Of a stretch of 64,000 bases of DNA, positions 11,424-59,819 are shown in pieces. Origin of the DNA: Anthoceros angustus (taxonomy: Eukaryota > Plantae > Anthocerotophyta). Below the pieces are notes generated by a model that saw only the letters and a program-made list of their open reading frames with translations, was not told where the DNA came from and did no database searches. How positions within the stretch are numbered: the stretch's first letter is position 1; every line of letters begins with the position of its first letter. Location of the stretch: the NCBI GenBank assembly GCA_010909165.1, contig MU008217.1:180979-244978 (forward strand), in the 5' to 3' direction. A program made the translations under genes and the position numbers.

Positions 11424-11649
11424 ATGAAGAAGAAGAAGAATTTTATTTAAGTCCACTAAGGACGGATTTCCGACATGGGACTTGGTACTTAACAACTTGT
11501 ACCATGGTGTGCCTAAGCTATTTGTACCAAGGGCATCTAGATCGGTACTTAGATGGGGTGCCTAAAAAAGGCACAAGTTGTTAAGTACCAAGTCCCATGT
11601 CGGAAATTTGTCCTTAGTGGACTTAAATAAAATTCTTCTTCTTCTTCAT
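11424..11649. mobile_element. Palindromic (tails-outward) derivative of a short interspersed element, with ~70-bp terminal inverted repeats
   Basis: Left arm ATGAAGAAGAAGAAGAATTTTATTTAAGTCCACTAAGGAC...ACTTGT is the reverse complement of the right arm ending ...GTCCTTAGTGGACTTAAATAAAATTCTTCTTCTTCTTCAT. Same family as 24239-24442 and 32428-32631. Confidence 0.8.
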
Positions 11650-24238: not shown

Positions 24239-24442
24239 AGGCCAAATGGACACACATTTATAAGAACGCCATGATTAAGCATCCTGAGCTTGGATCGGTA
24301 CTTAGATGGGGTGCCTAAAGGGAGTGGATGCCCTTGGTGCAAGTAGCTTAGGCACACCATGGTACAAGTTGTTAAGTACCAAGTCCCATGACGGAAACCG
24401 TCCTTAGTGGACTTAAATAAAATTCTTCTTCTTCTTCTTCAT
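24239..24442 (+). mobile_element. ~200-bp SINE-like element with AATAAA and a (TTC)n tail
   Basis: Near-identical to the reverse complement of 32428-32631. Ends ...GTGGACTTAAATAAAATTCTTCTTCTTCTTCTTC. No clear TSD or tRNA A/B box seen. Confidence 0.75.
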
Positions 24443-25131: not shown

Positions 25132-27628
25132 ATGGCCACAGTATGGCAACCGGAACCGTTGTGGACACAACGAATGGGTGTGTCTACAGGGATTCTACCA
25201 GGAGCTCCCGCTCACCTCGCTTCAGAGAGTCAATTTCCGGCAAACAACCAAGTCTCCAGGTGCAGCAGAGTAAGGAGCCCAACAATTCCACTTCCGAAAG
25301 AATGTGTGGGTGGGGACGGGTTATCCAGGGATGCTTGTCGCCAGGACGAGGAGCACTTGTGGCAACCAACCATGCGGTGGGACAACAGACTAGATACTAA
25401 GAGCTCACGTTCGCCTGACTTCCGGCGTAAGGGGTCCGGCGAGGTCCTGTGGTTAAACAGCATGTTTAAGCCAGCTTGGGTTGATGAGCAGCTCGTTTCC
25501 TTGGATATACAGATGGGTCGTGGTGCCTCTCCTTTGAAGTCGAGCTCTACGAAAAAGCTTGAACCTGGCAGGCGTGAAGGATCGGGAATGGGCGTCGTAA
25601 CTGCTGGAACCGTGAGCATATCATGTCTGCAGGGGAAGCTTTCTGAGGCCGTTGGAGCCCTGGAATCTGTGGCGCAGACAGACTATGCTATTTCTCATTC
25701 TCTGTTTTATACTTGGGGAACCGTATCTTGCGCATGTATGCATGTGGAGGTAGGCTTCACGAGGCCATGGATGTGTTCACCAGGGTGGGAAAACCAGATG
25801 CCTTCATGTGGTTTTCCCTAATCTCTGCATATGTCAAGCATGGGAAACCCAATGAGGCCATACATGTGTACCATGAGATGCGTAAGTCAGGAGTGAAGGC
25901 GGATGCTCACGTCTTTGTAGCTGCCCTTCAAGCTTGTGCATTTGCCGCCGACTTGGAATCTGGCAGAAAAGTGCACTGTGAGTGTTGCACAGTGGCATTC
26001 CTCTTAACTTGTTTGTTGGTACCTGCCTGGTGGATATGTATTCAAATGTGGTGAACTGAAAGATGCACGCCAGGTTTTTGATAGCATGAACACGAAGAAT
26101 GTGGTTACATGGAATGCCCTGATAGCTGGGTATGCAAAACGTGGCGAACTGGAAGATGCACGTCGGGTTTTCGAAAGCTTGGCCACGAAGGATGTGGTGA
26201 CATGGACGGCACTGATTGCTGGGTATGCACAGCAAGGACTCGGCCAAAAGGCGCTTGTTTTGTATGGAAAAATGGAGCAGGAGGGCCTCACTTTGGCTGA
26301 CCATTTTACTTTTGCTTGCCTTCTGAAGGCTTGTGCAAGCATTGGTGCCTTACAGAGGGGCAGGCAGCAACCATCTAGGGGACTGCTGACTGACGTAGTG
26401 TTGGGCAACTGCCTGGTGGACATGTATGCAAAATGGACGGCACTGATTGCTGGGTATGCACAGCAAGGACTCAGGTAAGAGGCGCTGGTACTGTATGGAC
26501 TAATGGAGCAAGAGGGCCTGCTCGTGGCGAACGATGTTACTTTCGTTTGCCTTCTGAATGCCTGTGCAAGCGCGGGTGCCTTGCAGAAGGGCAGGCAGCT
26601 GCACTCACAAATTGTAGAAAGAGGATTGCTTGATAGCATAATTTTGGGCAACTGTCTGGTGGACATGTATGCAAAATGTGGTGTTCTGGAAGATGCACGT
26701 CAGGTTTTTGACAGCATGGCTACGAAGGACGTGGTTACATGGAATGCCCTGATATCTGGGTACGGTACTTGTGATGAGGGTCACAGAGCACTAGCTTGTT
26801 TTGAGGAGATGTTAGTTGCCGGTACTCAGCCTGATGGTGCTACTTTTACTTGCCTTCTTGTGGCATGCAGTCATGAGGAGCTGGTCGACGAGGGTTGCAA
26901 GCGTTTTGATTCCATGGCTGAACAGCATGGCATCATCCCTACTCTTGAGCATTACAATTGCATGATTGATCTTCTTGGGCGTGCAGGCCGTTTAGATGAG
27001 GCAGAGAAGATGCTGTTATCATGCGACGGCCAAAGTGATGTCGTGGGCTTGACGTCTTTGTTGAATGCCTGCAAAAGTCACGGGGATATAGAGAGGGCGA
27101 TGTGGTGTTTTAAGGCACTGTCAGGCTGGACCCTCAAAATATGCGCATGTGCTCATGAAAAATGCCTATGCAGATGCAGGTAGGTGGACCGATGTAGACA
27201 GGATTAAAACACAGAGAATGGCTGCAGGAGCTAACAAGAACCCTGCAGTGGCAAGCATTGAGGCGAATAAGCAGGTACATAGATTTTTGGTGGGAGTAAG
27301 GAGAGATGATATTGCGCTTAAGGTAGAGAGCACGAAAACACGACTGAAGCAAGAGGGAGGCCACGTACCTCAAACGAAGCTGGTGTTGAAGCCACTGTGT
27401 GAGAAAGAAAAGGACGAGGCGCTTTGTGGGCTCTAGCGTTTGGTCTCTTGAACACTCCGAATGGGACACCTCTGGTGGTAACAAAGAATCTACGGATGTG
27501 CAGTGACTGCCACAGTTACGGAGATCATGTCAAGGCTTGAACAGAGAGACATTGTTGTAAGGGACGGGTACCGTGTGCATCGACTCGCAGCTGGTTCTTG
27601 CACTGGTAAGGGTCGACCGCGAGAATAA
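25132..27628 (+). pseudogene. PLS-class PPR RNA-editing factor with E-DYW:KP (GRP-type) C-terminus; disrupted
   Basis: PPR motifs (KDVVTWNALIAGY, LGNCLVDMYAKCG.LEDARQVFDSM), E domain (HYNCMIDLLGRAG), then [25 protein letters not shown]|[11 protein letters not shown]...[10 protein letters not shown]...RDIVVRDGYRVHR..GSCTGKGRP. Lesions: several frameshifts, in-frame TAA at ~26476, deleted half-motifs, and a deletion at ~27430 that removes the zinc-binding HxE. Confidence 0.9.
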
Positions 27629-28468
27629 TGAACTAGTCAGTGCTCAAGTGTGCACGCTAGAGATTATTGCTTTCTTTCTTGAGGGTGAGTGTGAGTGCTT
27701 AACTCCAAGACCTGGACACGGGTCGCTAAAATTAATCCATCTCTCTTAATCACAGAGATACATAATCAGAACGGAATGGATCTCCTCCCGTACAAGAGTA
27801 CATCCTGTGGTGAAAGGAAGGTGAAAGGGAGCTGATTGTGGATACCTGGGACATACATATTGGAATAGAAGATTGAATGAAGGGTGGGATGCTACAAATA
27901 TGTACATATGGTCCAAAGTTTACACTTACTAGGCATGGTTTGGCTTGGCCTGGAGCTGACGTTTCAAGCTCTTGCATTTTCCGTGTATGTTGGAGCAGTG
28001 CCGGTGGATACCAGACATGGACGGAGACGACTGTAGGAACAGATTCCTATTGGGATGAATTCAATTCAATTTTACCGGGTCAATACTGGAATGGACACTT
28101 CCTCTATACAAGAAATCTTTAAGTGGACCAGTCCTCCTGTTCGTTACCTAAGCAAAGTTATCACACGTTTGCCGCCAGGGTGATCAAGAGTTTCTGGGTA
28201 AGTTAAAAAACTTATCTGTTAATTAATAAGTTATATTATTATTTATCTTTATAGATGGTTTAAAAGATTATAACATCTCGTAAACCATCACGGGACCCGG
28301 GTGGCCATTCTGGTATTGATCACCTAGCCATGTCCACAACGCGGGGGTCCCGAAACAGAACAGCAGGTACAGTAAAACCCAGCCACGACGACACGACCTT
28401 CGGGCGGTACAAAAAAAGTGATGAACCTGATGCGCCATCCCTTCGGACACGCAGAACGCGAACTCCTT

Positions 28469-31400
28469 TTACTCGGAGGACTGCTGACTCTCCTCCATAG
28501 CTTTCTCCACAACTTCTGCCACTGGCACGTAGACAATCCGTTTCCCACTACTTGGTGATAAGGAATTCAATGCAGCAGTCCTACTAGCCTGCTCCATGTC
28601 CAGAGTTCTTTTCAACTCGTGCAGCTTCATCTCCACCTCATCCAACTTTTGCAGAAGCTGTCCGTCACCGAGTAGGCTGCTTCTACGATCATCGTGACTA
28701 GATGTGTCTTGTATGGCTGCCTTACCTGACCCACCGGCATCAACGGTTCGGGCACGTGAAGATGTTGACAACCCATTTTTCAGCGCATGATACCTCATGT
28801 TCTTGAACCACTGATCAACCTGCAAAGTGCTCGTTTTATATCAATCACCAACCTCCAACAATCATTTCTTCATCCAGCTTTAGACAGCACTAGAGGTATA
28901 ACCTGTCGATAACAGAGACCAAGATCCTTAGCCAGGTCATCCTTTGATGCTCTTGATGGAAGTTCATTCACGGCAAACGTCCGACGCATAACCTGCAGTA
29001 GATGGGTAAAATATGGATCAGTGATATTCGGCTTCTCCTGAGAAAGTTGGGGTGCGACGAGTAATCAGCATGCTGCTAGAATATTGGTATACAAGCTGAG
29101 GAAGTCCAAAAGTCAAACAAGAAATTGCACGGCAGATACCTTGGTGTAAACGTGACATGACCTGATTCAGACCACAGAAAATGAGAATGCAAATGCAACA
29201 CTACTTAGCAGCCTGTCTTCTGCAGACACCCAGATTCAAAAGACAATGTACCTCAATGGCAACAGCAGGCAGCCTCACAACTACCCTTTTCCGCTTCTCC
29301 TGACAAGCCGGAGCCTGCCTAACATCAGCTCCTTCGAGGTCGGAAGCCTCAACTACCTTTGATGTCCCATTGTTCAAGTCAGCGACACAGTCCCCACTCC
29401 CTTTTTTATCATCACTGCCTTTTCTAGGGCGTCTTCCTTGCTGAGGTCCCCAATCCTCATCTTCAGAATGTTCGTCATCATCTGCCTCACTTTTGCTGCC
29501 AAACATTTCCTGCCAGGCCAATACATGTTAGTAAACATTGCGGCAAGGATCTCGGGAATGAGGACGAGAGCTTGCTATGTCAGAAGCATCACCAGCCTCA
29601 AGCCAGAGAGTCTTACAACACCACGATGAGACAGCCAAATGGCAATCAAACAAATCACACCAGTTGTATGGTATTGAACCGGCATTACTGCGGACCAGGA
29701 TCAGACTCACTCCCCTTGACAAGTACAGGGCCTTACATCATTCAGTCTCCTGTAATCAACTGTTTTCCTACTCCTTTTCCGAGCAGGAGGCTCTACACCT
29801 CCATCCACATCATCATGCTGCTCAGCCATTGATGCTACATTCATGTTTTCCTCTGCATCGGAAGCCGAGGAATGATCCTCAAGCCCACCCTCGGCTGCAT
29901 CATTATCAGAGCTATCTGAATCTCCTGAATCACTTGAGGACTGACAGCCCTCTTCTAACTCATCGTTGTCTTCACTAAGTTCCTTCTCTGCTTTTTCAGG
30001 ATCAAAATCGTCATCTTCGTCATCTTCTGATGGCCAGTCTCCATTGGCAGAAGACACTGCACCTTCTCCAGCAGCAGCAGCTGCTGCCTCACAAAAAATT
30101 TCCTGCAGAAAATTATCCAGTCTAGGGTTGAAAAGGCAAAGCTCACTTTTCTCTGCCAGAGTCTATTCACCAGCTTCTCTTCAAACAATCCAAAACAAGT
30201 ACGACTACCAATCAGCAGGAAAACCAGACTTCAACAATGACATTCTAGAACTGTCGTGTATATGCAGTTCAGAGTCCCATGTACTGACCTCCCAGCTAGT
30301 CTCCACCCCAAAACTTGTCCCAACATGGGCATTTATGTGATGAAAACATTCGACTTTGGCCTCGCAGGCAGGACAGAGCCAGCCCTCATTCTCGGGTGGA
30401 ACTTTAAACACAAAATCAACAAGTCAGTTATGACGAAGCTGCTTATGCAGCCTCCTGTCTTCATGCACATGTATTGACTAGTCTGGTGCCTACTGGCTTC
30501 CAGTCTATCCTGTAGAAACTAGGATTCCATCTATGAAACTGCAAAATCTGCAAAAATGATATCTTACTATCGTCAGTAGCCAGAGGAGGTTCCAAACAAT
30601 TTTGATGGAATCCACGATTGCAAAACCCATCGCAGAGAATTATATCATTGTCAGCCAAAGCTTCCTGTGACTTGCATTTGGCACAAAAGATCTGAAACAC
30701 CATCCAGACTATCCATATCAGATTAAACTGCACAAGTGAGGGCTTAGACGTCCATGACATCACAAAGGAGCAAAGTCGCAAACCAAAAAGCATGGCACAC
30801 GGAGAGAAAGAGGCTGCAAAAGCTCGACCTCTTCATGATATATTTGCCCTTCCGCGTCAAAGGCGGATTCGTCAATAGATCCTTCCAAACACAAAACATC
30901 CAGCTCCCTGACAGCCTCACGAATTGCTAACTTGCATTGCAGTATTTGAGATTCAGCCCGCTCCAGCTCTCTTTCGGGCCTTAATTTCTCCCGGCTGCAC
31001 CAGTACCACGCACCGTAAGAGTGGATCAAATGCAAACCCTTCGGGACGGCAGGCGGGTGAGGGCAACTCATGAGGCAACAAAAAGTTCTCGATGCTGGTC
31101 TGGAAGCGGATGAAGCACAAACCTTTGGCCTTTCCACCCCTCGGAGGAATAAGCGTCTAATAGATGTTGTTCTCGTCTCAAGCGAAAGACCAAATTCCTC
31201 ACGCGATTTTTTATTCTGGACAGGTCATCTACAGGAGGCTTGGGCTTCTTCCTTCTCCGCCGTCGATGTCGAGGAGCAGGTAAGGAAGTGCCAGTTTCAG
31301 CTGCACTCTCCACAGTAGGTGTAGATTTCTTGGGAGCTGAATTCGGACCCCGACGGCGATGCACTACAGCCACATTCAGCTCAGGGGCATCACCACTTTG

Positions 31401-31874
31401 ATCCTGCTCCTCCGTTCCCCTGTCTGTGGCGTCCTGGTCAGCTGATGAATCTGTGGCACCTCGATCAGCTGACTGATCTCCTTCCTGTAACCCATGAGCC
31501 CTAACAGGTTTCCGCTTGCCAGCTTTGATCTGAACCCTAGATCTGCGTTTCCTCTTGCGTGGAGCTTGTGAAACATGCTTCACGGGTTTGGTAGCAGGAT
31601 GGGAGGAAGGGGTCGCACTTTTAGCGGCCCGGCCCCTGGTCATCACTGCAGTATCAGCAGTTGCCTGCACCTTCGTGATCCGCTTGGCAATCTGCACGGC
31701 CGGCATCTTCGCGGGCCGTGCTTCCAGACCGCTTTCAGCAGCTCTCTTACGAGATCGGGTACCTGGAACAGGTCTGTCCTGGTCCGCACTCTGGGACTCC
31801 TCCAACTGCGCGTCCTTTGCCTCCGCCTGCTCTTCGGAGCTAGGAGAAGCCTTCAATCTAGCGCCCCTGGCCAT
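28469..31874 (-). CDS. PHD-finger homeodomain protein, PRH/HAT3.1 family; 8 exons
   Basis: Exons 31874-31123, 30994-30829, 30691-30568, 30401-30289, 30102-29737, 29509-29252, 28992-28903, 28819-28469. Motifs [23 protein letters not shown] (IFCAKC...[18 protein letters not shown]...WLCPAC), acidic [25 protein letters not shown], and homeodomain helix 3 [10 protein letters not shown]. Confidence 0.93.
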
Positions 31875-32427
31875 GGAAGCATGAACCGAGATGCGTGATC
31901 CAAAATCAAGCGACAAGAGCCCTGGAATGCGAGACCAGTGCCCAGGGCAGCAGCAACCCAACTAACGCTCGTCCTCCTGGACGGTAGTAGCCCCTAAGCA
32001 ACACAGATGACTCCATCCAATCACCGTCCCCGCATCTGCACATCTAGACAGGTGGCAGCCCGGTGTACCGCGATGCCAGTGCCTGCGATTCCGCCACGAC
32101 CACTAGTAGCACTACAGCAGGAGCTGTGGAGACAAATACTAAAGAGGGGTGCCCGAGTGCGGGAAGTCGCAGGATCAACTGGGAGCTGGCCCAGGAAAGC
32201 AGAGGGAGGCTTGCTCCAGCTTGATAGCGCAGGCGCCCGCCGCAGCCTGACCAGAAGCATGCAAAATCATTCGCAGCACAGGGCTCGTTGCCTTGCGCAT
32301 ATCACTCGCACTCGACGCTGGCCATTCACACGAAGTTGCCACGCACAGCGCAAGCATTGGGATGACAAAACCTGGCTAAGTACGTTATGGGATGATGTGA
32401 GAGATTTGAAATTGACGCAGCGTGTCT

Positions 32428-32631
32428 GAAGAAGAAGAAGAAGAATTTTATTTTGAGTCCACTAAGGACGGATTTCCGTCATGGGACTTGGTACTTGACA
32501 ACCTGTACCATGGTGTGCCTAAGCTACTTGCACCAAGGGCGTCCACTCCCTTTAGGCACCCCATTTAAGTACCGATCTAAGCTCAGGATGCTTAATCACG
32601 GCGTTCTTATAAATGTGTGTCCATTTGGCCT
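32428..32631 (-). mobile_element. ~200-bp SINE-like element, second full copy
   Basis: Reverse complement of 24239-24442 with few substitutions; the (GAA)n run at its left end is the tail. Confidence 0.75.
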
Positions 32632-33799
32632 GAGGAGTAAGAGACAAAAGGTACGTAGGTTTTCTCCTTATCGCTAAAATAAGCGGGAAGCGCAAGCTCT
32701 GCCGCTGGTGCACCATCTATGTACCACCTACACTAGCTATGTACATATTGGCAATCACCTAGAAATTCATCCGCACATATGTCATGTAGACAAGAAAGCA
32801 GTATTTTACGGCTATGATCTGAGTTTGTCCTCAATGGAAGGGTCTATATACTAGACCCTGGCATCGGCATATTCCTAAGATATCCTATTGGCATCAAGAT
32901 GCGAAATATCCTAAGAATACACTATAATATGCAAGGAATATGCCAAAGCATATTACTTGAGCTTATCCACTTAGCTATTGCTAACCATGTTTAATTAACA
33001 CTAATCAATGCTTAATTAACATAAGCACCTTAGATTAATTAACTCTAATCAATGCTTAATTAACATAAGCATTTAGATTAATTAATTACTTACTTAAAGA
33101 TAAGTAATTAGATTAATTAATGCTAATCAAACACTAAACCCAAGTGCGAGATTAGTATCACACTAAGATGACACGACGAGGTAAGCACTTGAATTCATAT
33201 AAGCACTTCCTCGACCAACAACCAAGCAAAAATCTAATACTAGATATATAGGTGCAACTAATCCCCGATAATGTGAGACTCTAAGTCAAAACATTATCAT
33301 TAGTAGGACTACACACGACGCACCTCATGTAGCATTGTGCACAAAACCAATCTTCTGGAATGTCGCCCGAGGTTATGAACCTTGTCCAAGTGAGTGGGTT
33401 GTCTTCAAGATCCTCATGCTACCGCCATGTGGACTACTCTCCACCGGCTGTTCTCGCCATTTTCTTCTTGCCTCGAGCTCTCCCGCGAACACTTGTTCAT
33501 CCTTGATTAGTTCTATGTGGAACTTCCTTTGGTGTACTTCCCATCTCAAGCGTGAAAGCAAACACATGTCGCGATGCCTCCAACAACTCCTTTAGACGCC
33601 GCTGATTGCTCTTCAACTCGACGCCAACCACTCATGTAGCGTGGCTCGATGGCTTGCACGCCTTCCTCACGCTATTACTCTCCTTGCCTCCAAACTCGCC
33701 TTCTCGAGATGCGAGTGCCGGAATGCCTTTTGCCCACCGAACCGCCGCTTCAACCCCGCCTTCTTCCGTTTCAAGTTGGTGTTTACCCAACAACAACCA

Positions 33800-34320
33800 G
33801 TCATCATGTTCATGTCAAATGCTTGCCCAAGCAATCGACACTCCTTCCTGGCCACCCTGATCATGCCAAAATCCTCCGGACTTGCTTCTTCACGCTCATG
33901 CATGCCGGCACATTCTCCAACATGTATCCACAAGGCCTTTCTTGCCCTTTCTGGATCAAGCGCAAGATCCTCATCAGTCATAGAACAATGCGTGGATCCT
34001 TCGACCTTGACCCTTGCCTCGCAGAGGATAGTCCTCGACACTCCCAACCGCGATGACAAGGTCCACCGGCTGCCCAAGACAACTCAAATGGGACAACCCT
34101 ATCATGCGAACATCCATCGCGCTCGTAACCCTTCACCGACTCCCACGCCGAGAGGTTAGGTACTCCCCATCAAGTCTCTTACGCTCGGACACAATCCTTG
34201 CTTTTGGATCCGGGTCACAATGCACGATCTTCGCACTTTGATGCCACACTTTAGCACTGCCCAAGCCGATCGATGCCTCCAAAGAGTTCCACGAGCACTA
34301 TGCCGCCTTCCCGAGGTCGC
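33800..34320 (-). pseudogene. Cytosine-C5 DNA methyltransferase domain embedded in the retrotransposon polyprotein
   Basis: Joined across 1-nt indels: GIVLVELFGGI (motif I, ~34301-34272); AVLKCGIKVRR.VHCDPDPKAR (II); VDLVIAGWECRGLSSAGKGQG.KDPR..LFYDLMRIL (IV, Cys codon 34040-34038); GYMLENVP (VI, ~33917-33909); LLGQAFDMN (X, ~33831-33808). Motif VIII and the TRD appear deleted. Confidence 0.85.
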
Positions 34321-37059
34321 CATGTGATGACCGGTGTTTAGGTCACAAACAGCTCAACCCTAGGCAAGAACTCATGTAGCCTCCGCTCATAGGACAATCG
34401 GGTCCTCTTGCACCATCCTCCACAGCCTTTTGTCATTCAGCCACCAGCTCCGAGTGACTTGAAGAACCTCCTCCGAGGGTGGTTGCAACCCTAGCTTGTT
34501 TTCCTCCTCCTCGCCGAAATCCTCCATCGCCGGGCCATGTTGTTAGACACACGCCAAGAGGTTCAAGCACGATGGCGTGTCCTTCACTACGGCCAAACAC
34601 CGGGTAGACGCTGGCAATGAGGTTCTCATGATCCTTGCCATGTACCGCAGAGGGATGCGGGCAATCCGCTCATCGGTTTTGCTCCAGCCTTTCTCCACTG
34701 GTCGATAGTAGACTGCCTCCCACAAATCCACCATGACTCTGTGTTTGTACAAAGCGTCCGCCCAAAGAAGACATCAAATGTGTCCGCATCAAGACTGGCA
34801 GACAAAGGTGAAGTCTGTTGTTCTTGGTTTGAATGAAACCTTCAGCTTGTACCTTGTCACCCCCAACACATGCTCCGTGGTCCCACGGTCCGATCTTCCA
34901 CTTGGTTTCCTTCAACCTTTCTTGGTGGAGACCCAACGCCTTCACTCTTCTTCCAACGATCACCGGCTCCTGTCAATCAACACCTCCTTGGTGCGAATCC
35001 ATTGATTTCAATGTGCCTCCCGATTGTTGACCAAAGCCACTCCCACTGCGCAAGATTCCGCTTCCATAGATGCTTGGTTCGAGGTCGAATGACATCATTG
35101 CCACCGGTGGCAAATTGTCGACACTTGCTTCGCCTTCAAGGGTTGTCAACATCCGCCGAGTCAAACCCCGACTTCCTTCACGCCAACCCCATGTCTTGTA
35201 GGTCAAACATGGCATCTCCGAAGCTTTTGTGCCATCGCTCCGAATCTGCATGGGTTTCTCCACATCGCCCACTGACTTTGATGTTGCTCCAGCTGTTCGC
35301 TGGCAATGGCTCAAACGACTTTGGCATCTTGGCATAGGTTCGGAAGAGGATCCCCAAGCTTCCTTCCGTCTTCCCACAGAGGTGTCACGCCTCTTCTTCC
35401 TCTCGAGCTATCTTCTCGTAGCCAGGTTTCTTCCCTTGCCCTTGATCCGTCACCGCCATGTATCCAAGCTTGTGCTCATCTTCTCCTCCGATGATGAACC
35501 GCCGCCTCCTTGATCTTCGCCCGCACCAACTTCCAGCTTTGCAAGGCGTGCCACGAGCCGCCCATCGCCTTCTTTGATGCTTCCCGCTTTTGTCCACGGA
35601 CTTCGCCGCCTCCTCCACGCGCCTTTGCTCCGATTTTGTGGATGAGGTTGACGCAGATGCATTGGCCGGGTTGCCGCCGACAACCCGTGAGGCCGCACGG
35701 ATGCTTCTCCCAACATGCCGCTCATTGTGCCTGCATTCTCCACACCTAGGGCATGGCTCCTCACCCTTGACTCTCCGAATGCATGCTCGCACTCATGAGG
35801 GAATGGTCCGCCCCTCGCACCTCACGCAGGGCTCCACTTGGGTGGGCGGCTTGTCTCGCCGAGCTCCTCCACTGACCTCCGCTTGGCCATGTCGCCCACC
35901 ACTCCTACTTGTGCCGAGTAATCACTTGCAACACGAGAGAAAGTGTCCGGCCCCTATCTTGTCACCCATCTCGCATACACTTCCTGAGGGTGTAGTGTTG
36001 CCCTTCGCGGCACCGCTTGTTGCACCTTCATGCGCAGCATATGGCAATGCCTGCAAGTACTTCTCGCAGCCTTCACTCATGATCTTGGTGTCACGCATCA
36101 ACCGGGTCGATTCTTCGATAAGCCATCTTCGCCTCCGACTTCATCTTGAAGTGTGTCACCGAGATCTTCTCATCCGTGCTTGCGTGAAACTCCACGAAGA
36201 TGTCAAACATCTCTTCGATGGGATCGTGCCCACTGGTGCCACCGCCTCGTCAGACCGGTTCCTTGAGCTTGAACGCTACTCATGGTCCTCCATGTGCTGC
36301 CAACAACCTCGCCTTGTGCTCGCGATAGCACGCCAATGCTTCATCCCCAAGTACTGGCATTTGGATGAAGCCGACGTGTATCCGGCCTTCAATTCCATCT
36401 CCGCACACACCGCACTGCATTTCGGCGAAGTCCTCCAAAAGGTGCCCGCCTGTGAACAACTCCATTCGATCCTTGTCTCCTCCCATCTTGACGACTCCAA
36501 GAGACAAGTCCTCCTCGCCGCTCACCGAGTTGGCAAGACTAACGTGTCTTGTGTGTTGCCACCATGATCCTTCAAAGATTGTTGATTGGTCGCTTCCTCC
36601 GTTCCTTCCCGGGTACCAAAATCGAGGTGTTCGCACTTCTCTTGGTCGGACTTCAATTCGCCTCGATGGACTTGCTGGTTGGTAGCCCGTCCGATCGAGT
36701 GTGTCCAGCATGCACTCCAGGCGGTTAGTGGCTAGATCAAACCCTTAATCAAGGTTAACACACGCTATCTTAGATCGTGATTAGTGAAACCTCTAAGTAT
36801 CTATGCATGTTAAATTGCATACAATACTGCAGGCACTTAGTCAAAAACGTGAGCGGAGTTGATAGCAAAGGCATAAGAACTCCAAAGTTAAGCACCGTGG
36901 GTGGATCAAGATTGGGGTGCCAACCAGGAGAAAGTGAAATCAAATGGATTGACATACCCATGTCTATCCGCTTCTCCTTATCCCTTGAATCTGGGCCCAA
37001 GAGTAAAATTTGTTTCTCCCTTGGTTGGTTGGCCTTAAAGGCCACCCCCCTGGAGGCCT

Positions 37060-37262
37060 CATTCCTCCTCAGCCTCCTTGGCCGGGCCTTCTCCTCCTCC
37101 TTGGCCTTGACTTGGGCCTCCTCTCCTGGCCTTGACTGGGCTTCGCCTCCTGGCCTTGACTGGGCTTCTTCGCCTCCTCCTTGGCCTTGACTGGGCTTCT
37201 CGCCTCCCTCGGCCTTGGGCTTCTCTTCTCCTCCTGGCCTTGACCTCCTCTTCGCCTCCCTG
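37060..37262 (+). repeat. Degenerate ~22-bp pyrimidine-rich tandem repeat (CTCCTTGGCCTTGACTTGGGC...) in the family-1 LTR; repeated at ~39185-39290
   Basis: Directly visible imperfect units. Confidence 0.85.
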
Positions 37263-40200
37263 GCCTACGCTTGCTTAAAGAGCCAGCCGCCGAGCTCGCC
37301 TAGCCTAGCATCGCCCAAGACGCCCAGCACGCCCAGACGCCCAGCATCAGCACTAGCTTAGCATCACCCAGCATCGCCAAGCCGCCTAGCATCACTAGCA
37401 TCACAGCCCAGTACGCCCATCTAGCACACACGAGATCATAGCTTGAACAGGAGAGTAGCTCGACGCCGTGGGCACAAACACACCTCCCCACGAACAACAC
37501 GCAAATTCCTCACATCGCCTCCTGAGTCATAGCTTTGGCCTCCTCACAACGCCTCAGACAGATATCTACAAGATCCGAGCTTGTCCTCAATGGAAGGGTC
37601 TATATATACTAGACTGCATCGATATTCCTAAGATATCCTATTGGCATCAAGATATGCCGTAAATATCCTAAGAATACACTATAATATGCAATATGCCAAA
37701 GCATATTACTTGAGCTTATCCACTTAGCTATTGTATCCTAAGAATACACTATAATATGCAAGGAATATGCCAAAGCATATTACTTGAGCTTATCCACTTA
37801 GCTATTGCTAACCATGTTTAATTAACACTAATCAATGCTTAATTAACATAAGCACTTTAGATTAATTAATACCTAATTACTTACTTAAAGATAAGTAATT
37901 AGATTAATTAATGCTAATCAAACACTAAACCCAAGTGCGTAGATTAGTATCACTGCATTTAACATTCTCATCATGCCTTTTTTCCTATACTTAAAAAATT
38001 CTAAATTATCACAGGAAAAAAAGAGAAAAATAGAAGAGTCTCAAGACAATGCTCCAACTTATGGCCCTTCAAAGGAGTTCACTGAATTTGGCAAATGGAT
38101 GAATAACTTCCAATATCCGCCAATATTCCAAGATCCAGAAACTGGAGACAGCACTCTATGTGGCCACGGTGTCAGCATTTAGGAGCAGATGTGAAAGTGA
38201 TGAGACAAGATCGCAAAACGCCAGCGTAGCAAACACCAAACCTTTATACTATAGGCACCGCCTAACGATCGATCACCAAGAATCGACTTTAAAAAGGAAA
38301 CAAAATGGCTGTGGTAATACCTTGAGGGTTGTTTGTTCAAGGGCTTCATGTACCGGACCTTGAGGGGCTCTCTTGGCCAAAACTTGCATACAAAAAAACA
38401 GATAAGAATAGATGCAGTTCTCACTAGCAAAGAAATCAAACAGCAGCGATGGTAGTGGCCTATCCTCGAAAAAATGGCTGGAAGCAAGAGCCCACGAGAC
38501 AGCTGGATGTGGGCGAAGAGGGCTTTACCGAACGTAGATAACAATGTGAACCGCCACGAGGAAATAATTGTGCTTGACGTCGTACCTACGAAGGACGCCA
38601 AGAGCGAGACTTCTTGTCATCGTGGTGGCGGATTTAGAGCTCAAATGAAGCCACCGAGCCCGGCAGCAAAAGATGTGATCATATGGTTACCAGTAGAACA
38701 AAGATCAGAAAGCATCAAGTTGCAATTTCTTGTACCCAAAAGGATCGGAACCAAGATGCTCAAGGAAGCGACCGAAGCGAAGTCCATCGTACACCTGTGA
38801 ACGTGGTGGTGGTGTGGACTACTGACTTCCCTTGGGGTTAAGAAAAGTAGGGTTTTGTTTTTTCGTAGGAGCGAGGACAAAATAAGGCGAAAAGGAGGAA
38901 TAAGCATGGATAGCACTCGACCGCACCGGAGTATACTCCGACCGAGTGGGCAACGACCTGACCTACTATGGCGGTGCACCGACCACGCGGGTAACGGATA
39001 AGTCCGGACCCACCCAGTCCAAGCAGGATAAGTACGCCAGGAAAGTAACTTAGAAGTTGAGCCGTGAGGACGACCAGGCGGCGCCACGTGGACGGCCCGA
39101 GTGGAGGTCGGCATGCACCGCCAGACAGACCTGCCAGGGCCGCAGGCAGTATTCACGCCGGACGCGCGCCAGAAGGCCGAGGCACTCCTTGGGCCTTGAC
39201 TTGGGCTTCGCCTCCTTGGCTTGACTTGGGCTCTTCGCCTCCTCCTTGGCCTTGACTTGGGCTCTTCGCCTCCCTCCTGGCCTGACTTGGCTTCTGCTTA
39301 AAGAGCTAGCGCCGCCGCCCAGCTCCCCGCCTAGCATCGCCAGCACGCCAGCACGCACGCTAGCACGCCCAGCATCGCCAGCATCGCCAGGTAGCTTTAG
39401 CATCACCTAGCACGCTTAGCCACTCTAAAGTTGCCTAGCATCGCCTTAACATCACACTCAAGCCTAGCCGCCTATCCAGTGTACACACATGAGATCATAG
39501 CTTGTAACAGAGGGAGTAGCTCGCACGTGGGCACAAACACACTCTCCCCACGAGAACAACACGCAAATTCCTCACACATCGCCTTCCTGAGTCATAGCTT
39601 TGGCCTCCTCACAACGCCTGTGCAGACATCTAGAGGACAAGCTATGATCTCGAGCTTGTCCTCAATGGAAGGGTCTATATATACTAGACTTCGGCATCGG
39701 CATATTCCTAAGATATCCTATTGGCATCAAAGATACGTAAATATCCTAAGAATACACTATATATTATGCAAGGAATATGCCAAAGCATATTACTTGAGCT
39801 TATCCACTTAGCTATTCTAAGAATACACTATAATATGCAAGGAATATGCCAAAGCATATTACTTGAGCTTATCCACTTAGCTATTGCTAACCATGTTTAA
39901 TTATCACTAATCAATGCTTAATTAACATAAGCATATTAGATTAATTAACACTAATTACTTACTTAAACATGAGTAATTAGACTAATTAATGCTAATCAAA
40001 CACTAAACCCAAGTGCAGAGATTAGTATCACACGGCATGACACATTCTCATCATGCCTTTTTTCCTATACTTAAAAAATTCTAAATTATCACAGGAAAAA
40101 AAGAGAAAAATAGAAGAGTCTCAAGACAATGCTCCAACTTATGGCCCTTCAAAGGAGTTCACTGAATTTGGCAAATGGATGAATAACTTCCAATATCCGC

Positions 40201-41260
40201 CAATATTCCAAGATCCAGAAACTGGAGACAGCACTCTATGTGGCCACGATAAATCCGTGTCGCACTGAGCAGATGGAATGAAGTGATGAGACAAGATCGC
40301 AAAACGGCTGTAGCAAACACCAGCAAACCTTTATACTAGAAAGCACCGCCACTAACGATCGATCACCAAGAACCGACTTTAAAAAGGAAATCCACAGGTA
40401 AGAAGGTCAGTTTGGCTACCTTGAGGGTTGTTTATGTTCCGAAGGGCTTCAGCCGGACCTTGAGGGGCTCTCTCAGGCACTGGGCCCTAAAACTTCTGCA
40501 AGACAAAAATGTGGATAAGAATAGATGCAGTTCTCACTAGCAAAGAAATCAAACAGCAGCGATGGTAGTGGCCTATCCTCGAAAAAATGGCTGGAAGCAA
40601 GAGCCCACGAGATACCGCTTGGATGTAAGAGGGCTTTACCAACGTAGATAACAATGTGAACCGCCACGAGAAATAATGCTTTGACGACTCACAAGGACGC
40701 CAAGAGCGAGACTTCTTGATCGGGTGGCGGTGATTTAGAGCTCACAAGTCGGATGCCACCGAGCCTGGGCAGCAAAAAAAAGATGTGATCATATGGTTAC
40801 CAGTAGAACAAAGATCAGAAAGCATCAAGTTGCAATTTCTTGTACCCAAAAGGGACTGGAACCAAGATGCTCAAGGAAGCGATCGAAGCGAGTCCATCGA
40901 CACTGTGAACGTGGTGGTGTGGACTACGGACTTTGGGGTTAGAACAAGTAGGGTTTTGTTTTTTAGGAGTAAGGATAAAATAAGGCGAAAAGGAGGAATA
41001 AGCATGGATAGCACTCGGACCGCACTGGAGTATACTCGGACTCGAGTGAGGAACAGACCTACTATGGCAGGCACCGACTACGTAACGGATAAGTCCGGAC
41101 CCACTCCGTGTCCAAACAGGATAAGTACGCCAGGAAAGTAACTTAGAAGTTGAGCCGTGAGGACGACTAGGCGACGCCACGTGGACCCCGAGTGGAGGTC
41201 GGGCATGCAGCCAGACCGCTGGGGCCGCGAGGCAGTATTCACGCCCGCGACGCGCGGGCG
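37100..41260 (+). repeat. ~2.1-kb tandem duplication of (family-1 LTR part + unique segment + 5' end of family-2 LTR)
   Basis: Shared anchors at 37973/40053 (ATGCCTTTTTTCCTATAC) and 38813/40918 (TGTGGACTAC). Both copies carry the same internal ~65-bp duplication. Confidence 0.85.
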
Positions 41261-44200
41261 CGTAAGCAGCACGCGCGCGTAAGGCCGAGGGGAGGCGAAG
41301 GTCGCATGTGCACTCGCGCACAGTGGAAGAGGCGCGCCCGCCCGCTTACTAAAGGCGCGTCAAGGGGAAGGTCATGCCGCCGCACCGAGACACCTCGCTT
41401 GCGCCCGCAACCCGGCCTCCGCGTATCTCTTTGAGCGCCCAAGGCCCTCGAGCTGAGGTTCGGAGCAGAACGCGCGGAGGGCGATCGTGCCTCCCCAGCC
41501 AAGAACAAGGGAGGAAGGCGATGGCACCCAAAAGCCTGGAAGTTTGGGAGCCATGGAACCTTGTGGAGCGCAACATTGTGACCCGGCGCTATCCGGACTT
41601 TGGGCCCGGCCCAGGAAGCGGAGAATTGGTGAGGAGTGGCATTTGGATGTGTTCCATGGTCCGACGCTCGACCACTCCGTCCGGAGTTTGCCCGAAGATG
41701 CCGGCGGCGGTCAACAAGGAGGTGCGGTCCAAGAACCTCCGGAGGACCCAAGGCGATGGACCTTGAGGTCCCGAGGCGGCCTACAACCGCCCAAAGGAGG
41801 AAGAGGGGAGTGGTGCCGAGCCCCTCAAGGCGGCGGGGAAGATAGGGCCCAAGGCCGAGGCTCGACGCAGGACCACCAACGGGTTGATATCCGACCGCGG
41901 ATCCGAGTAAGGGCGGTAGCCCGGATCATTGTCCATTGGAACCTACTCACCAAGGTGGATCACCTTGGTGATAATCTATATTCCCGCATGCGCCTGGGAA
42001 GAGGGCGACCGGGAAGGATTATCTTCGCCCGGTTAGCCAGAGGCTCGCAAGCTGGAGCCGAGAAGCCTCGCCATCTGGGCCCCCATACCCGATCCATGTA
42101 TGGGGCATTTCGAGCTCCTCAAGGAAGGAGAGCTTGAGCGAGCCCGGAAGGACCGAGGCCCGCCGGAAGTGGAGCGGCAAGGGCGCCGAGGGAGGAGGCC
42201 GACAAGCCAAACGACTCGGAGGAGGACGATCGAGGATTCCTGACTCCATACGCGAACGGGACCCCTCACCACCTGTGGAAGTATGGGAAGAAATTCCCCG
42301 CCTCCTCCGGTGCCCCAACCAGACCAGCCAGAAGCCCCCCCAGCCCGCCACCACCACAACCACTGGAGCCCCGCCGACAGGGAGAAGAGCGCAAGACCAG
42401 GACCAACGCAGCACCCGACGGTGCACCTCCCCGCCACGAGTGGCAAGAAGAGGAAGTGAAGGAGGGCGAAAGGACGCGCCTGTGGAGCAGGAGGACACGG
42501 CAGCCTGACCAGCCCCCTGCCTCCGATGAAGGGGCAAAGGGCTTGCTCCCGACTCCTCCTCCTCCGAGCCCTGTGAGAAGGAGAGCCAAAAGGGCCAAGG
42601 AAGGGAAGCCAGACTCGTGACCTAAGGGTCCCGATTAGGTCCGAGAACCCACCGACTTACTCCGGATCGGTATGGAGGTCCTCGGACGTGAGATGCCGCC
42701 CACACGGACTTTGTGGGAGCCTCACTGCGGCCGGAAGAAACACGGGTCCTGCTACCGCCATGGACGGTATGCTGGGGTCTCGGGATGGCCGAGAAGACCT
42801 GGGAGGTAGAAGCCACCCGAGGCGCATGGTACTCCTCCAGAGGCTTGGAGGGGCCCAGAGGCGGAAGGCAAGCTCTCGGCCGATTGAGGAAGGAAACGCC
42901 GAGAGAGGGGAGGTCCGTCCATCCGCAAGGACCGGACAAATTCCTTCACCGAGGAACAACAAGTGAAGCCAAGGAGGCCCAAGCGGCGAGGACCTCGCAG
43001 TGAGAGGGCGAGCGCAGAGGCAAGAGGCCCGGGCGCAAGCGGAGCGGCTGGACCGCGGAGGCGGCCCGACGACCGGAGCCAAGCCGGAGAGGCTGTGAAG
43101 GTGGCCAAGGAGGCGGAGGCCACGGCCGATCGCGATCACTACCATCGGCGTGATCGAACCGGTGGAGGGAGGCTAGAGCCACGGCCAACTAAGGCCGAGC
43201 AGCGGAGCAAGCACGACGAGCCGCAGGACTGGAGGCCACCGGGAGACCCTGTGGCACAGGAGGTAGAAGGGAGGGAGCCGGAGGAGCAAGGACACCTTGG
43301 AGTTACAACCCAAGATGCCGGAGCAGCAGGGTTCTCAACGAGAATCCAAGACTTCGAGAGGAGCCTCGTCAAGATGGAGCAGGAGGGCGGAGCAAGCGCC
43401 GCCAGCCTGTGAAGCTCGCGAGGGAGATGGAGGATCTCCACTGGGAGGTGGAGCAAGAAGGGAGATGGAAGACCGCAAGGAGACTTTGAGCGCCCAAACT
43501 ACCATTGAGAGGAATGGTAGTCTGACTGTCGCGAACGCGAGGAGAGCGGCCCACCTGCATGACGAGGCGACGCGATGGAACAGGAGTGACGCCGAGATGG
43601 AGAAGGCTGGGCGGGAGCCCGCAGCCGCTGCGCGAGAGGAGATGGCGGAGTTCACCGGACAGAGGGGAGCGAGGAGCAAGAAGTGCCGGTCCATGAGGAG
43701 GCGGAAGGGAACGCGCTATGGCGCCGCGCGGAGCTGGCGGAGGGAGTGGAGCAGGGTGACCCGGCGGGGTGGGAGGAGGGGGCAGGGCCCAATCAAACTG
43801 GGCAGGGAGGTGGCAAAGGGCAAAGGGATTCGGACTTTGCCTACCACGCCGAGCCCCGAGGAGCCTCCCACCGCTGACGACTGGAAGGCCTGGGAGAAGA
43901 AGGGCATGGGACAAAGAGGGACGGGGCCTGGAGATGACGGAGGGAGAAGAGCAAGAGGAGCGGACGCAGGACTAAAGTTCACCACCCCGCCGGAGAGGAG
44001 GAGGGCCCCGGGGTGCGAGGAGCCAACCCGACCCAAGACAAGGCCTGGGGAGGAGGACCCAGCAAGACGAGGTCCACAGAAAGGGGTCCGAGTTGGGACC
44101 GGACCCGAGTCAAGAGGTCCAACCCCAGAGAGACCCAGACCGACTCGGGAAATAAGACTGACCGGAGTTCGGGAGAGACTGACCCCCGAGGTCCTGACCC

Positions 44201-44972
44201 GCAAGAGGAGCCCCTCTCGACTTACGCTAGGGAGAGAGAAGGGGCCCCACCGGGAGGGGAGGGGGAGGCTGGGAGGATGACGTTGTGGTAACGGGCGGTC
44301 CGACCGCCAGCCCAACCCGGCTGTGATTCCGGAGAGGAGGGTCCCGCCGATCATCCGATTGCCACGCAATGCCGTGAGGAGATAGTGGTATACCGAAATC
44401 AAATGTAATAGGGGTAATAAAGACGACCGGGCGTAGTATAAGAGGGGGGGCCGCAATAAATCATCTTTCTTGGTGTTGATGCCGCTCTGCACCTTTGTGT
44501 GTCTTCTTGCTAACGTGAGTCCCGAGTCACCGAAAGGTGCACGATACCCGGAGATTGAGGTCCCGTGACGGACCTAACGTGTGTGGTGTGTGCAGAAGGG
44601 TGATCGGGACCCGTGGCCTGAGCCGCGCCCGCCGAACCGACCTGTGAGCCGGAGGAACTCCGGGGCGTAGAGCCCGGACGGAGAGGCCCGAACGAGGAGG
44701 TCCGACTGCGGTTTTCTAAGACCGAGAGTGTGAGTGAGAGAGGAAAGGACGGAGGTGTGAGGACGAACGTGAACGAAACGGACGCGAACGGGTCCTTAAA
44801 CGCTTACCCCCGGTGAACGCTGAGTAGTTAGAGTGTGTGCGTGAGACCGAACGGACGCAGTAAGACGAGAATCAAACGCGTAAACGGAGCCTATCATTCC
44901 CTTGGGAACGGACTTCTTCCTACAACGACACGGATTGTGCGCGCTACCGGCCGTCACGAAAGTCGCGCCACA
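40918..44972 (+). repeat. 5' LTR of the family-2 element (~4.05 kb); TATA-like GTATAAG ~44435 and AATAAA ~44455
   Basis: Colinear with 50339-51905+56380-59291 and with 51906-56379. Promoter and polyA motifs recur at ~55812 and ~58706. Confidence 0.85.
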
Positions 44973-45199
44973 TTTTGGCGCTGCCGGGAATGAAATCGCA
45001 GCAAGCGTGGATGGAGGACGGAGGTAGTTAAGGAGAGAGAGAGTGGACGCCAGATCGCCGAGCGCCCGAGCGCAGTAACGCGTGAGAGACGACGAGCTCG
45101 AGGCGAGGTCACCACCAATGTAAGCGGTGGAGTTGTCGGATCGAGAGGAGGAAGCACGTCAAGCGCGGTAAGGGGGCGGTTCCTCACCCCGCCGATCGC

Positions 45200-48100
45200 G
45201 ATGGCAACAACGCCGACCAAGCAAGTATTCTCTTTGGAGGTAAGAAGGAGAGAGATCAAACCTTCGTGGAGGATTTTGTTCGGCAAACTTCAACGGAGAA
45301 GGTTCGGATGCGCATCCAAATTGCTCCAAGGGTCCAAGGGGTGCCTGGTATCGGAAATACCGACCGCCCGAACGCCCCCGCAACCTTCAAGATTGAAGGA
45401 TGCCTTTAGAAAGATTCCGTGAATCGATCAAGAAGGCTTCTTGTCCAAACTCGAGAACCCAAGCGAGGAAGACGGAGAAGTTGGGATCGTACATCGAACG
45501 GTTCTACGCGCTGCGGGACCGGCACCCCACTCACACTACCATGCAGGCGGTACGTTGGTTCGCAGCTGGCTTATCCAAGCCAATGGCTAAGCACGTGCTG
45601 CTGTTGGCAGAGAAAGATGTGAGCAAGGCGGTCCGGGCGGCGGAGAACTATGAAGAATCGATGCACCAACGACGGCCGAGGACTCCTCCAGGAGGAAAGA
45701 AGAAAAGAAACGGGGGCCTGATCAAGATGAAGAACCCTCAAGAGGAGGATGATGAGACCGAGGTAGCACGAGGAAGAGGAAGAGGACTCAAGAAGAATCC
45801 GAGGATCATGGAAGAAGAAGAACCTACCAAAATAAGAAGAAGAAGCCCGTAGTCGGGAGGGTGGAAAAGAAGGAGGTCATGATGCCCGCCGGCACGAGAG
45901 GTCACCGACCCTCCTTTGAAGGAAGGGCCGAGGGAAGATCTAGAACGGGTAATGAAGAGGGTGGAGGAGTTGACGATCAACCGTGAAGGATAAAGAACGC
46001 GAAGGCGCGGCCACCACGGTCCGGACTCATCTGGTGTGCGGTGTGTCACCAACATGGGCATTCAAGGCCGCCTCCGCACCCGTGAACCGTGGAGTATGAC
46101 TACGGGAAGAGTCCGAGGAACAAAGGAGGATGCATACCAAGTGCAAGAAGCACAACCGGACCAGATCCGACGATGTACCCCGTGGTCCGTCTGCATCGAC
46201 CTCCGATGCAAGACCGCATGGGAGCCCTCCGTGAATTCTCGTGGCGCGTGGTCTCTTGAACTGGGAACCCCGGCACTACTCCAACGCGTGCCATACCCCA
46301 CCGCAAGGCAACGGGACTTTGAACGCCTGTGGAGATTGTAAAGGTGCAGGGCACATGGCGTGCACTGTGTCCGAATCCTCGCCGAGGACGGTGCGCCACG
46401 CCACCCTGCAGAGCCGCGACCACCACGCCCTCCCCTGCTACGCCTATTGAAGACGACAATGGAGTGGGAGGAGGCACCGAGGAGCTGAACGGTGGTACGG
46501 GCAAGTTCGCCAAGGAGAAGAAGGCGGACTGGATGGAAGTGTCAACCCGAGTCGCCAAAGGAGCGAAGGAAAGGAGACTTTAAGAGGAAGAAAATGGGGA
46601 TAGTCCCACGGATACGGAGGACGGAACACTGGGAAGCCGAACCCGCCAAAGAGGACGAGTTAAACCGGCAGCCGCCAAGAAGAAACCCCAAAACCCAAAG
46701 TCGAGAAGCGGACTCACCCACGGCAACACCGCAGCTTCCACCGGATGTGGTCCGAGAAGTGACCGAGATGCTTCAAGAAGAACTCCGGCAGACCTGAGTG
46801 GTCCGACCACCAGCTGGCGCCGGAGGAGCAAGGCGACGCTGACGCAGAGGAGAACCACCCGCCTTTCAAGGTGGCCGACTTGATGATGGACCAACAACAC
46901 TTGGTGTCCCTTAGGCGCTTGTTAAAGACAACCCGGCATCGGCTGTGAAGTCCGGAAGGCCATCAGGAACGCAACCACGGAACTCCTTGGTCCAAGGGCA
47001 AGAACGTGGAGGTAAGGGTCGATCTCATACGGACCGGGCGCCAGTGGTGTGAAATTGCGGGTGTAATTAAAACGCTCTAGACACGGGTCGAGTGAACCTC
47101 ATCACCGAGGCCACCGCAAGACGGCCGGGGTTCACCACCTTCGAGCCATCCACCAAAACCCTCGTGGATGGCGGATATGTCACGCGCGAGCGCCAGGGAG
47201 TTGTCCGAGTCCAAGCCACCATAGCGGAGCCCCTATACATTAGATTTTGTCGCCATCGACACGGACCTCCGGGTACGAGGTCGAGCGACCTGGCCGGACT
47301 CGCTGCATAAAACTACACTGAAGGAAGGAAATACACTTCAAGCCGGACCGGGATCCAAGGTGAGGGAAGGACGTAGCGACACGAGTAAGGACACATCTGG
47401 AGAAACCAAGCACTACGAGGGTACACCTCCGTCAAGACAAGGGGACGATGAGCGAGGATACGAATGAGGACTACCTTTCCCAAAATCACGTGGTCGAAGA
47501 AGATGGACTATCGGAGGGACACTTTGGAGCGGAGGTGATCATTGTTTTCAAGTGGAAGTCATGGAGGACAAAAAGGCGGAACCCAGGATGAGAGGACCAA
47601 GAAGTAACCCGTTCACCTCATTTAACTCTTCCGAGAATGGGGAATGCGTGAAGATGAACCCTGATGGAGGATGATGGCTTCGAGGAAGCGGGCGAGGAAA
47701 GAGAGACTCAACCCGACGATGTGGAAGACGTGGAGGTTCGCCAGGAAATTCCTAAAATTCGCAAGGGTATGCCAGAGTTAAACAAGACCTCACATTGTTG
47801 GGGAATTCAAAGGTGTTCGCTTTCAAGGTCACGACATGAAGGCATTCAAACAAGGCTAACACCGATAGATCGAAGTGAGCGGTGCCTGCTGGAGGCAAGA
47901 TAAATCAATCCCAAGCACTCGCCAAGGTCAAGGAAGTCCCGGATAAGTATCCGGAAGCGACATCATCTTCCCAATCGTGAATAAGTGGGTGGCGCCCATT
48001 GTGGTCGTGTCAAGAAGCAGGGTTCGTCCGCCAGATCGGAGAAAGCTTAACGCCGCCACGAAAAGGACCATTTCCCATGCCCTTTGTGGACGACATCGAC

Positions 48101-59815: not shown

Positions 59816-59819
59816 CGGC

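What the first reader, a model, noticed from the sequence alone, without database searches (positions are those of the whole stretch)
33800..34320. Land-plant Ty3/gypsy carrying a cytosine-C5 DNA methyltransferase inside its polyprotein
C5-MTase motifs I (LFGGI), II, IV (DLVIAGWEC, catalytic Cys kept, E-C instead of P-C), VI (ENV) and X lie in order between the aspartic protease and the RT N-terminus, on the gag-pol strand. Retrotransposon-borne DNMTs have been described in dinoflagellates and charophyte algae (de Mendoza et al. 2018); I cannot tell whether this land-plant family is described. Such an enzyme could methylate its own cDNA or new insertions. This copy lacks motif VIII/TRD and most of RT-RH-INT, so it is probably a dead derivative of an active family.
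Basis: partly seen in the sequence, partly recalled or inferred. Interest (0 to 1): 0.88.

Follow-up and report, generated by a model that had tools for sequence, protein, structure and literature searches.

The report
Hornwort retrotransposon carrying DNMT3-like methyltransferase
This is a broken, partly deleted copy of a multi-copy jumping gene in what is likely a hornwort, whose polyprotein includes a DNMT3-like DNA cytosine methyltransferase that intact copies would likely use on their own new DNA copies, a kind of element already described in a green alga and seen here also in liverworts and mosses.

Summary
On the minus strand, between a protease and the start of reverse transcriptase (RT), lie C5-methyltransferase motifs I, II, IV, VI and X. 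A frameshift-aware profile scores them 138 against 15±2 for controls; Pfam alone finds nothing in the window. About 135 residues (motif VIII, target-recognition region, motif IX) and nearly all of RT-RNaseH-integrase are missing, so this copy is dead. Relatives occur in Marchantia, Calypogeia, Sphagnum and Closterium; an intact one folds like DNMT3A/B; four show DIRS-like split repeats. It fits Gypsy-DNMT3 (KnitGypsy-Dnmt3, de Mendoza 2018). The host is likely a hornwort. This scan already found the family seven times in Sphagnum-like mosses. Additions here: a likely hornwort host, completing the three bryophyte lineages; E-C marks a subfamily rather than decay; and the P-C subfamily has a conserved TAG-CAA stop between methyltransferase and RT (28 of 28 loci), suggesting readthrough. 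Whether this copy had the stop is unresolved. Enzyme activity is untested; the algal enzyme showed none in yeast.

The parts
37572..37963 (-). 5' terminal repeat A (LTR-like, about 380 nt)
   Evidence: 16 mismatches in 307 aligned columns to the 3' copy; minus-strand start TGT
39641..40042 (-). Third copy of repeat A, inside a 2-kb tandem duplication (37177-39168 / 39185-41256); starts TGTCATGCC like the A repeats of relatives L066 and L074
35400..36492 (-). Gag with zinc-knuckle remains, many frame breaks
   Evidence: score 63 against the Gag of P0016; the knuckle region also aligns to P0033 (41) and P0029 (32); no shuffle control was run for this part
34680..35060 (-). Aspartic protease region
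   Evidence: relatives hit PF13975/PF13650 at the matching place
33860..34310 (-). DNMT3-like methyltransferase, motifs I, II, IV (G-W-E-C, Cys codon 34040-34038) and VI (ENV)
33850..33865 (-). Junction of an internal deletion of about 135 residues (motif VIII, target-recognition region, motif IX)
   Evidence: at 33848 depth 34.6 in X1 and 0 in X2, against hundreds to thousands in neighbouring bins; X2 loose end at 33841
33800..33850 (-). Methyltransferase motif X (LLGQAFD)
33489..33630 (-). First 50 or so residues of reverse transcriptase; the rest of RT, RNase H and integrase are absent
   Evidence: aligns to residues 28-77 of the RT-RH-IN ORF of L045
33174..33275 (-). Possible polypurine tract and B repeat (uncertain; no second B copy found)
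   Evidence: Sequence; no similarity to the other side of repeat A (91 of 300 shuffles score as high)
32811..33173 (-). 3' terminal repeat A

Best explanation
This is a dead, internally deleted copy of a Gypsy-DNMT3 retrotransposon in a likely hornwort, whose intact relatives encode Gag, protease and a DNMT3-fold cytosine methyltransferase ahead of RT-RNaseH-integrase and likely methylate their own new cDNA inside the particle before it integrates. Shown: domain order, family membership of the domain, DNMT3 fold of an intact relative, the deletions in this copy. Inferred: the protease would release the methyltransferase from the polyprotein; in the P-C subfamily a TAG-CAA stop after the methyltransferase would give many Gag-protease-methyltransferase chains and few readthrough chains with RT and integrase, so each particle would carry the enzyme at Gag-like numbers; new insertions would arrive pre-methylated, looking like host heterochromatin or silenced from the start. 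Identity about 0.9; cDNA methylation about 0.5.
For: Motif order and score in the window. 33 longer relatives, 24 named from Marchantia (15), Closterium (4), Calypogeia (3) and Sphagnum (2). L045 has clean ORFs for protease-DNMT (728 aa) and RT-RH-integrase-PHD (1047 aa); L093 has protease-DNMT-RT start with one stop only. Catalytic Cys and the ENV Glu are invariant in 28 aligned relatives; motif VIII R-x-R is kept in most rows that reach it. The model of L011 has pLDDT 91 and all 29 listed PDB matches are DNMT3A/B/C, best E 1.9e-20. Gag-protease-DNMT is one ORF in P0011, P0023 and P0033. The related SymbioDIRS-Dnmt3 enzymes methylate CG in yeast (PMC5890265).
Against: No activity is shown for any Gypsy-DNMT3; KnitGypsy-Dnmt3 gave none in yeast, which the authors call inconclusive. 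No intact copy of this host's own family was retrieved; the nearest relatives are only 26-43% identical. The window reads E-C-R where relatives read P/E-C-Q. No direct Pfam hit in the window. The B repeats and a target-site duplication were not found in this copy. The nearest moss subfamily (E-C) has no fixed stop, so the readthrough step may not apply to this element.
Confidence: 0.6

Rival explanations
1. The enzyme is active but acts after integration or in the nucleus, as a self-limiting brake: it methylates the element's own genomic copies and promoter, lowering transposition and harm to the host.
For: Raised in the Discussion of PMC5890265. If the stop is read through rarely, the methyltransferase is in large excess over RT, more than one cDNA per particle would need (inference).
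Against: Placement in the particle polyprotein between protease and RT favours packaging. No chromatin-reading domain is fused to the methyltransferase; the PHD finger in L045 sits on the integrase.
Confidence: 0.2
2. The domain serves as a nucleic-acid-binding or RNA-methylating part of the particle and does not methylate DNA.
For: No activity of KnitGypsy-Dnmt3 in yeast; E-C replaces the usual P-C in 14 of 34 relatives.
Against: Cys, ENV-Glu and R-x-R are kept across subfamilies only about 30-50% identical; the fold matches DNMT3, and DNMT2 scores only E=2.
Confidence: 0.15
3. A fragment of a host DNMT3 gene or a bacterial methylase was captured by this one copy.
For: The domain is incomplete here; Atlas feature neighbours include bacterial C5 methylase clusters; one close relative lies in a contig filed as cyanobacterial.
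Against: The same protease-DNMT-RT order recurs in liverworts, mosses and Closterium. The 'cyanobacterial' contig holds the whole retroelement order. The methyltransferase bins have hundreds to thousands of depth in two organisms, against 5-13 in the flank. HhaI-type enzymes score far below DNMT3.
Confidence: 0.03

Closest known systems
KnitGypsy-Dnmt3 (Gypsy-DNMT3) of Klebsormidium nitens, de Mendoza et al. 2018, PMC5890265 (read: text parts 1 and 3 of 7, Discussion, passages, searches of 3 supplementary files; figures and the main supplementary PDF not seen)
   Same: Gypsy-type domains, an intronless unrearranged DNMT3-type domain in the polyprotein, DIRS-like split repeats (in relatives L031, L032, L066, L074).
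   Different: Land-plant host; this copy is deleted; E-C catalytic loop; a TAG-CAA stop between DNMT and RT in the P-C subfamily, whereas the authors' reviewer response places DNMT in the same ORF as RT. No Klebsormidium sequence was in hand, so shared ancestry was not tested on a tree.
SymbioDIRS-Dnmt3 of Symbiodinium (same paper)
   Same: DNMT3-type domain in a retroelement polyprotein; split direct repeats; proposed cDNA methylation.
   Different: Tyrosine recombinase instead of DDE integrase; activity shown in yeast; independent acquisition.
Animal DNMT3A/3B and host bryophyte DNMT3
   Same: Fold and motif order.
   Different: About 21% identity; G-W-[PE]-C-Q loop instead of G-S-P-C-N; no PWWP or ADD domain; carried by a retrotransposon.
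EpiLTRs of Cymbomonas and Euglena (bioRxiv 10.64898/2026.05.21.726589, passages read)
   Same: LTR elements with a cytosine methyltransferase.
   Different: DNMT4-related, with an adenine methyltransferase and a chromodomain; stated there to be distinct from streptophyte Gypsy-DNMT3.

Membership tests
C5-cytosine methyltransferase (PF00145) | Motifs I, IV (catalytic Cys), VI (ENV) and X in order | tested here: met
C5-cytosine methyltransferase (PF00145) | Motifs VIII and IX and target-recognition region present | tested here: not met
   Deleted in this copy; present in relatives. This copy is not a working enzyme.
DNMT3 type | Nearest solved relatives are DNMT3, with unrearranged motif order | tested here: met
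   Tested on relatives, not on the broken copy:
DNMT3 type | Nests in the DNMT3 clade on a tree with DNMT1, DRM and bacterial enzymes | not tested
   No outgroup sequences were stored; the tree has family members only
Ty3/gypsy | Order Gag-PR-RT-RH-INT | tested here: met
   Gag, PR and RT start in the window; full order in L011 and L045
Gypsy-DNMT3 (KnitGypsy-Dnmt3) | DNMT3 domain inside the polyprotein coding region of a Gypsy element | tested here: met
Gypsy-DNMT3 (KnitGypsy-Dnmt3) | Split direct repeats A-coding-B-A-B | tested here: inconclusive
   Full pattern in 4 of 35 relatives' loci of 8 kb or more and a lone B-B pair in 5 more; the window has A at both ends with the same TGTCATG start but no second B
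Gypsy-DNMT3 (KnitGypsy-Dnmt3) | Common ancestry with the Klebsormidium element | not testable with these tools
   No Klebsormidium protein was among the 33 hits; Closterium members group with the window's subfamily
Gypsy-DNMT3 (KnitGypsy-Dnmt3) | Methyltransferase activity on DNA | not testable with these tools
   Needs an assay

The most novel reading that the evidence does not exclude
One ancient Gypsy lineage with split repeats has carried a working DNMT3 since before plants reached land and survives in hornworts, liverworts and mosses. It makes the enzyme at Gag level, with RT behind a leaky UAG in one branch, and delivers new insertions already methylated, so a retrotransposon writes part of the bryophyte methylome itself.
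Probability: 0.3. Interest if true: 0.8.

Novelty: new member of a known kind. Interest (0 to 1): 0.5.

Why it matters
Retrotransposons that carry the enzyme class hosts use to silence them are known from algae only in the papers I could search. Finding the family in a likely hornwort as well as in Marchantia, Calypogeia and Sphagnum puts it in all three bryophyte lineages and in a genetic model plant, so the open question of what the enzyme does for the element becomes testable. It also warns that many 'DNA methyltransferase' gene models in bryophyte genomes are transposon parts, and that some models bridge the conserved stop with what look like predicted introns.

Tried and rejected
Pfam on window ORFs and read-through frames: no PF00145. 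Word-indexed protein search with one read-through frame: 0 of 200 candidates. No whole genome is held. blastn of the element against 80 loci: one weak 62-nt hit. A PHD-finger tail at 33420-33330 was suspected by eye and is not supported: 73 of 200 shuffles score as high and Pfam finds nothing. A second B repeat and a target-site duplication (by eye) were not found. A TAG at 33674-33672 sits about 36 codons before the RT FAF motif (43-50 in relatives) and is followed by CGT, so it is not counted as the conserved stop. No RNA holder was listed; run X3 is only guessed to be RNA and is not used as evidence of expression. Viral contigs gave 12 distant matches, best E 7e-16, not followed beyond a score for L081. 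The careful PGDH tree did not finish (quick tree used); an IQ-TREE run timed out and FastTree was used (P0002 and P0006 left out for covering under 150 columns). What most copies in this host carry across the deleted part is left open.

Full report
Observation. The minus strand between about 36490 and 33490 reads, across many frame breaks, Gag with zinc knuckles, an aspartic protease, a C5-methyltransferase and the first 50 residues of RT. Motif positions are given under parts. Pfam does not see the domain in any single frame (0 of 13 ORFs; 0 of 6 read-through frames). One frame read through its stops found 6 proteins among 1.84 billion; 5 pass the PF00145 cut-off, and the sixth is a repetitive bacterial protein. 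A profile from 18 relatives, aligned with frameshifts allowed, scores the domain 138; 100 shuffles give 15.0±1.8, the opposite strand 13.9, and 208 other window stretches at most 23.5. The alignment needs a deletion of about 135 columns that removes motif VIII, the target-recognition region and motif IX.

The family. An alignment of the five hits found 33 longer proteins: Marchantia 15, Closterium 4, Calypogeia 3, Sphagnum 2, and 9 without an organism name. Metagenomes gave 366 matches, of which 80 were kept. Pfam shows protease-DNMT, DNMT-RT-RNaseH and knuckle-protease-DNMT in these proteins. L045 has protease-DNMT followed by RT-RNaseH-integrase-PHD. The L011 domain folds confidently (pLDDT 91); all 29 listed structural matches are DNMT3A/B/C (best E 1.9e-20), and by sequence DNMT3A scores E 1e-11, HhaI 8e-4 and DNMT2 2. 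G-W-E-C occurs in 14 of 34 relatives and G-W-P-C in 20. The window groups with the E-C members (FastTree support 0.94; 0.98 with Closterium; no outgroup). So E-C is a subfamily trait.

Ends. De Mendoza et al. describe DIRS-like repeats for KnitGypsy-Dnmt3 (figure legend). Four of 35 long loci show A-coding-B-A-B, two from each subfamily. Their A repeats start TGTCATG, preceded at B1 by a G-run. The window has three copies of a 350-400 nt repeat, one starting TGTCATGCC, but no second B was found.

A conserved stop in relatives. Of 43 loci where the RT-start motif was found, 28 belong to the P-C branch. All 28 have an in-frame stop 43-50 codons before it (TAG 19, TAA 9), followed by CAA in 26. 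Several of these loci are the same insertion from different samples, so they are not 28 independent cases. As a control in 25 of them, two conserved Gln codons are stops in only 2 of 21 and 3 of 22 matches, whereas the stop site never reads CAG or CAA (22 stops and one GAG in 23 pattern matches). Proteins from Marchantia (P0011), Calypogeia (P0012) and two JGI entries end 94-134 residues after motif X, at the matching place, and four gene models run on into RT while lacking the stretch around it. L045 and L093 have long clean frames on both sides of TAG-CAA-TCA. That context fits the tobacco-mosaic-virus-type readthrough signal UAG-CAR-YYA (recalled; not confirmed by a call; one search confirms only UAG readthrough in MuLV gag-pol). 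The 15 E-C loci lack this stop; 8 of them have a stop at one Gln site nearer RT where 7 read Gln, which I take as decay. For the window the question is unresolved.

State of this copy. In two DNA runs of two organisms the methyltransferase bins have summed depth 657-1996 and 1079-5915, against 5.5 and 12.6 for flank contigs. The tool warns this is no copy number, but it shows a repeated family. At 33848, next to the deletion junction, depth falls to 34.6 and 0, and in X2 contigs continue beyond 33841 with letters that fit the family sequence before motif X. So most copies differ from the window at the junction. One X1 contig reaches about 20 bases past it, too few to count as bridging. The window has 16 frame breaks and no stops in 466 aligned codons, whereas 15 relatives' loci have 0-4 breaks and 3-12 stops in 607-796 codons. 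Nine of the 12 listed indels against contigs are letters missing from the window, and a host PPR gene is also broken. I infer that many small breaks are assembly errors. The low identity lets the aligner dodge stops, which weakens this. The large deletions make the copy dead either way.

Host. The window's PGDH is 75% identical to lycophyte, moss and liverwort proteins and forms its own branch outside mosses, liverworts, vascular plants and Zygnematophyceae in a quick tree with no hornwort included. A PPR-E-DYW gene ends in G-R-P, a variant described for hornworts (PMC9478123, passages). A hornwort is therefore likely.

Mechanism. See Best explanation. Domain order and fold are shown. Packaging, readthrough and cDNA methylation are inferred. 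The related dinoflagellate enzymes methylate CG in yeast; the Klebsormidium one did not.

Literature. Ten searches. PMC5890265 names only Klebsormidium among plants (main supplementary PDF too large to read). PMC12344493 (passages; supplementary table searched) and bioRxiv 10.64898/2026.05.21.726589 (passages; supplements not seen) say 'streptophytes', which could include land plants in trees I could not see. Passages of PMC6317226, PMC10952607, PMC11982613 and PMC8075897 do not mention such elements. I found no paper describing a land-plant member or the stop; most subscription papers are not searched. This scan noted the family seven times in Sphagnum-like mosses, and nothing for hornwort with readthrough.

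Verdict. Real; a new member of a known kind; interest 0.5.

Noticed in passing
window 26008-27620 (+): PPR gene with E and DYW domains ending in G-R-P, the hornwort DYW:KP variant linked to U-to-C editing; broken by several frameshifts in this sequence.
   Followed up: partly
window 28300-31900 (-): Host gene with short introns and a PHD finger (PF00628), recalled as resembling the HAT3.1/PRHA PHD-homeodomain type; it starts about 900 bp from the element's 3' end.
   Followed up: partly
window 11424-11649, 24239-24441, 32427-32631: Three related 200-230 nt elements, one a near-perfect hairpin, with very high depth in runs X1 and X2 at the third copy: a MITE-like family. One copy lies between the element and the PHD gene.
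   Followed up: no
window 37177-39168 / 39185-41256: 2-kb tandem duplication at 84% identity with many indels, including the 5' repeat A; real duplication or assembly artefact not decided.
   Followed up: partly
window 40914-59300 (+): A-rich repeated block (40914-43358, 50339-51907, 51907-54459 alike) with a Gag-like ORF piece at 45397-45852: probably another decayed retroelement family, without a methyltransferase signal.
   Followed up: no
   Followed up: partly
L045:4664-7804: Integrase ends in a PHD finger (PF00628, E 4e-10), a possible chromatin-targeting module in this family.
   Followed up: partly
P0036 and P0038: Variant orders: in P0036 the methyltransferase is directly followed by integrase with a long unassigned tail; in Closterium P0038 it lies after integrase and a copia-type RT (RVT_2), possibly a fused gene model or a second capture.
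   Followed up: no
window 59819-60334: Tandem array of about 62-nt units.
   Followed up: no
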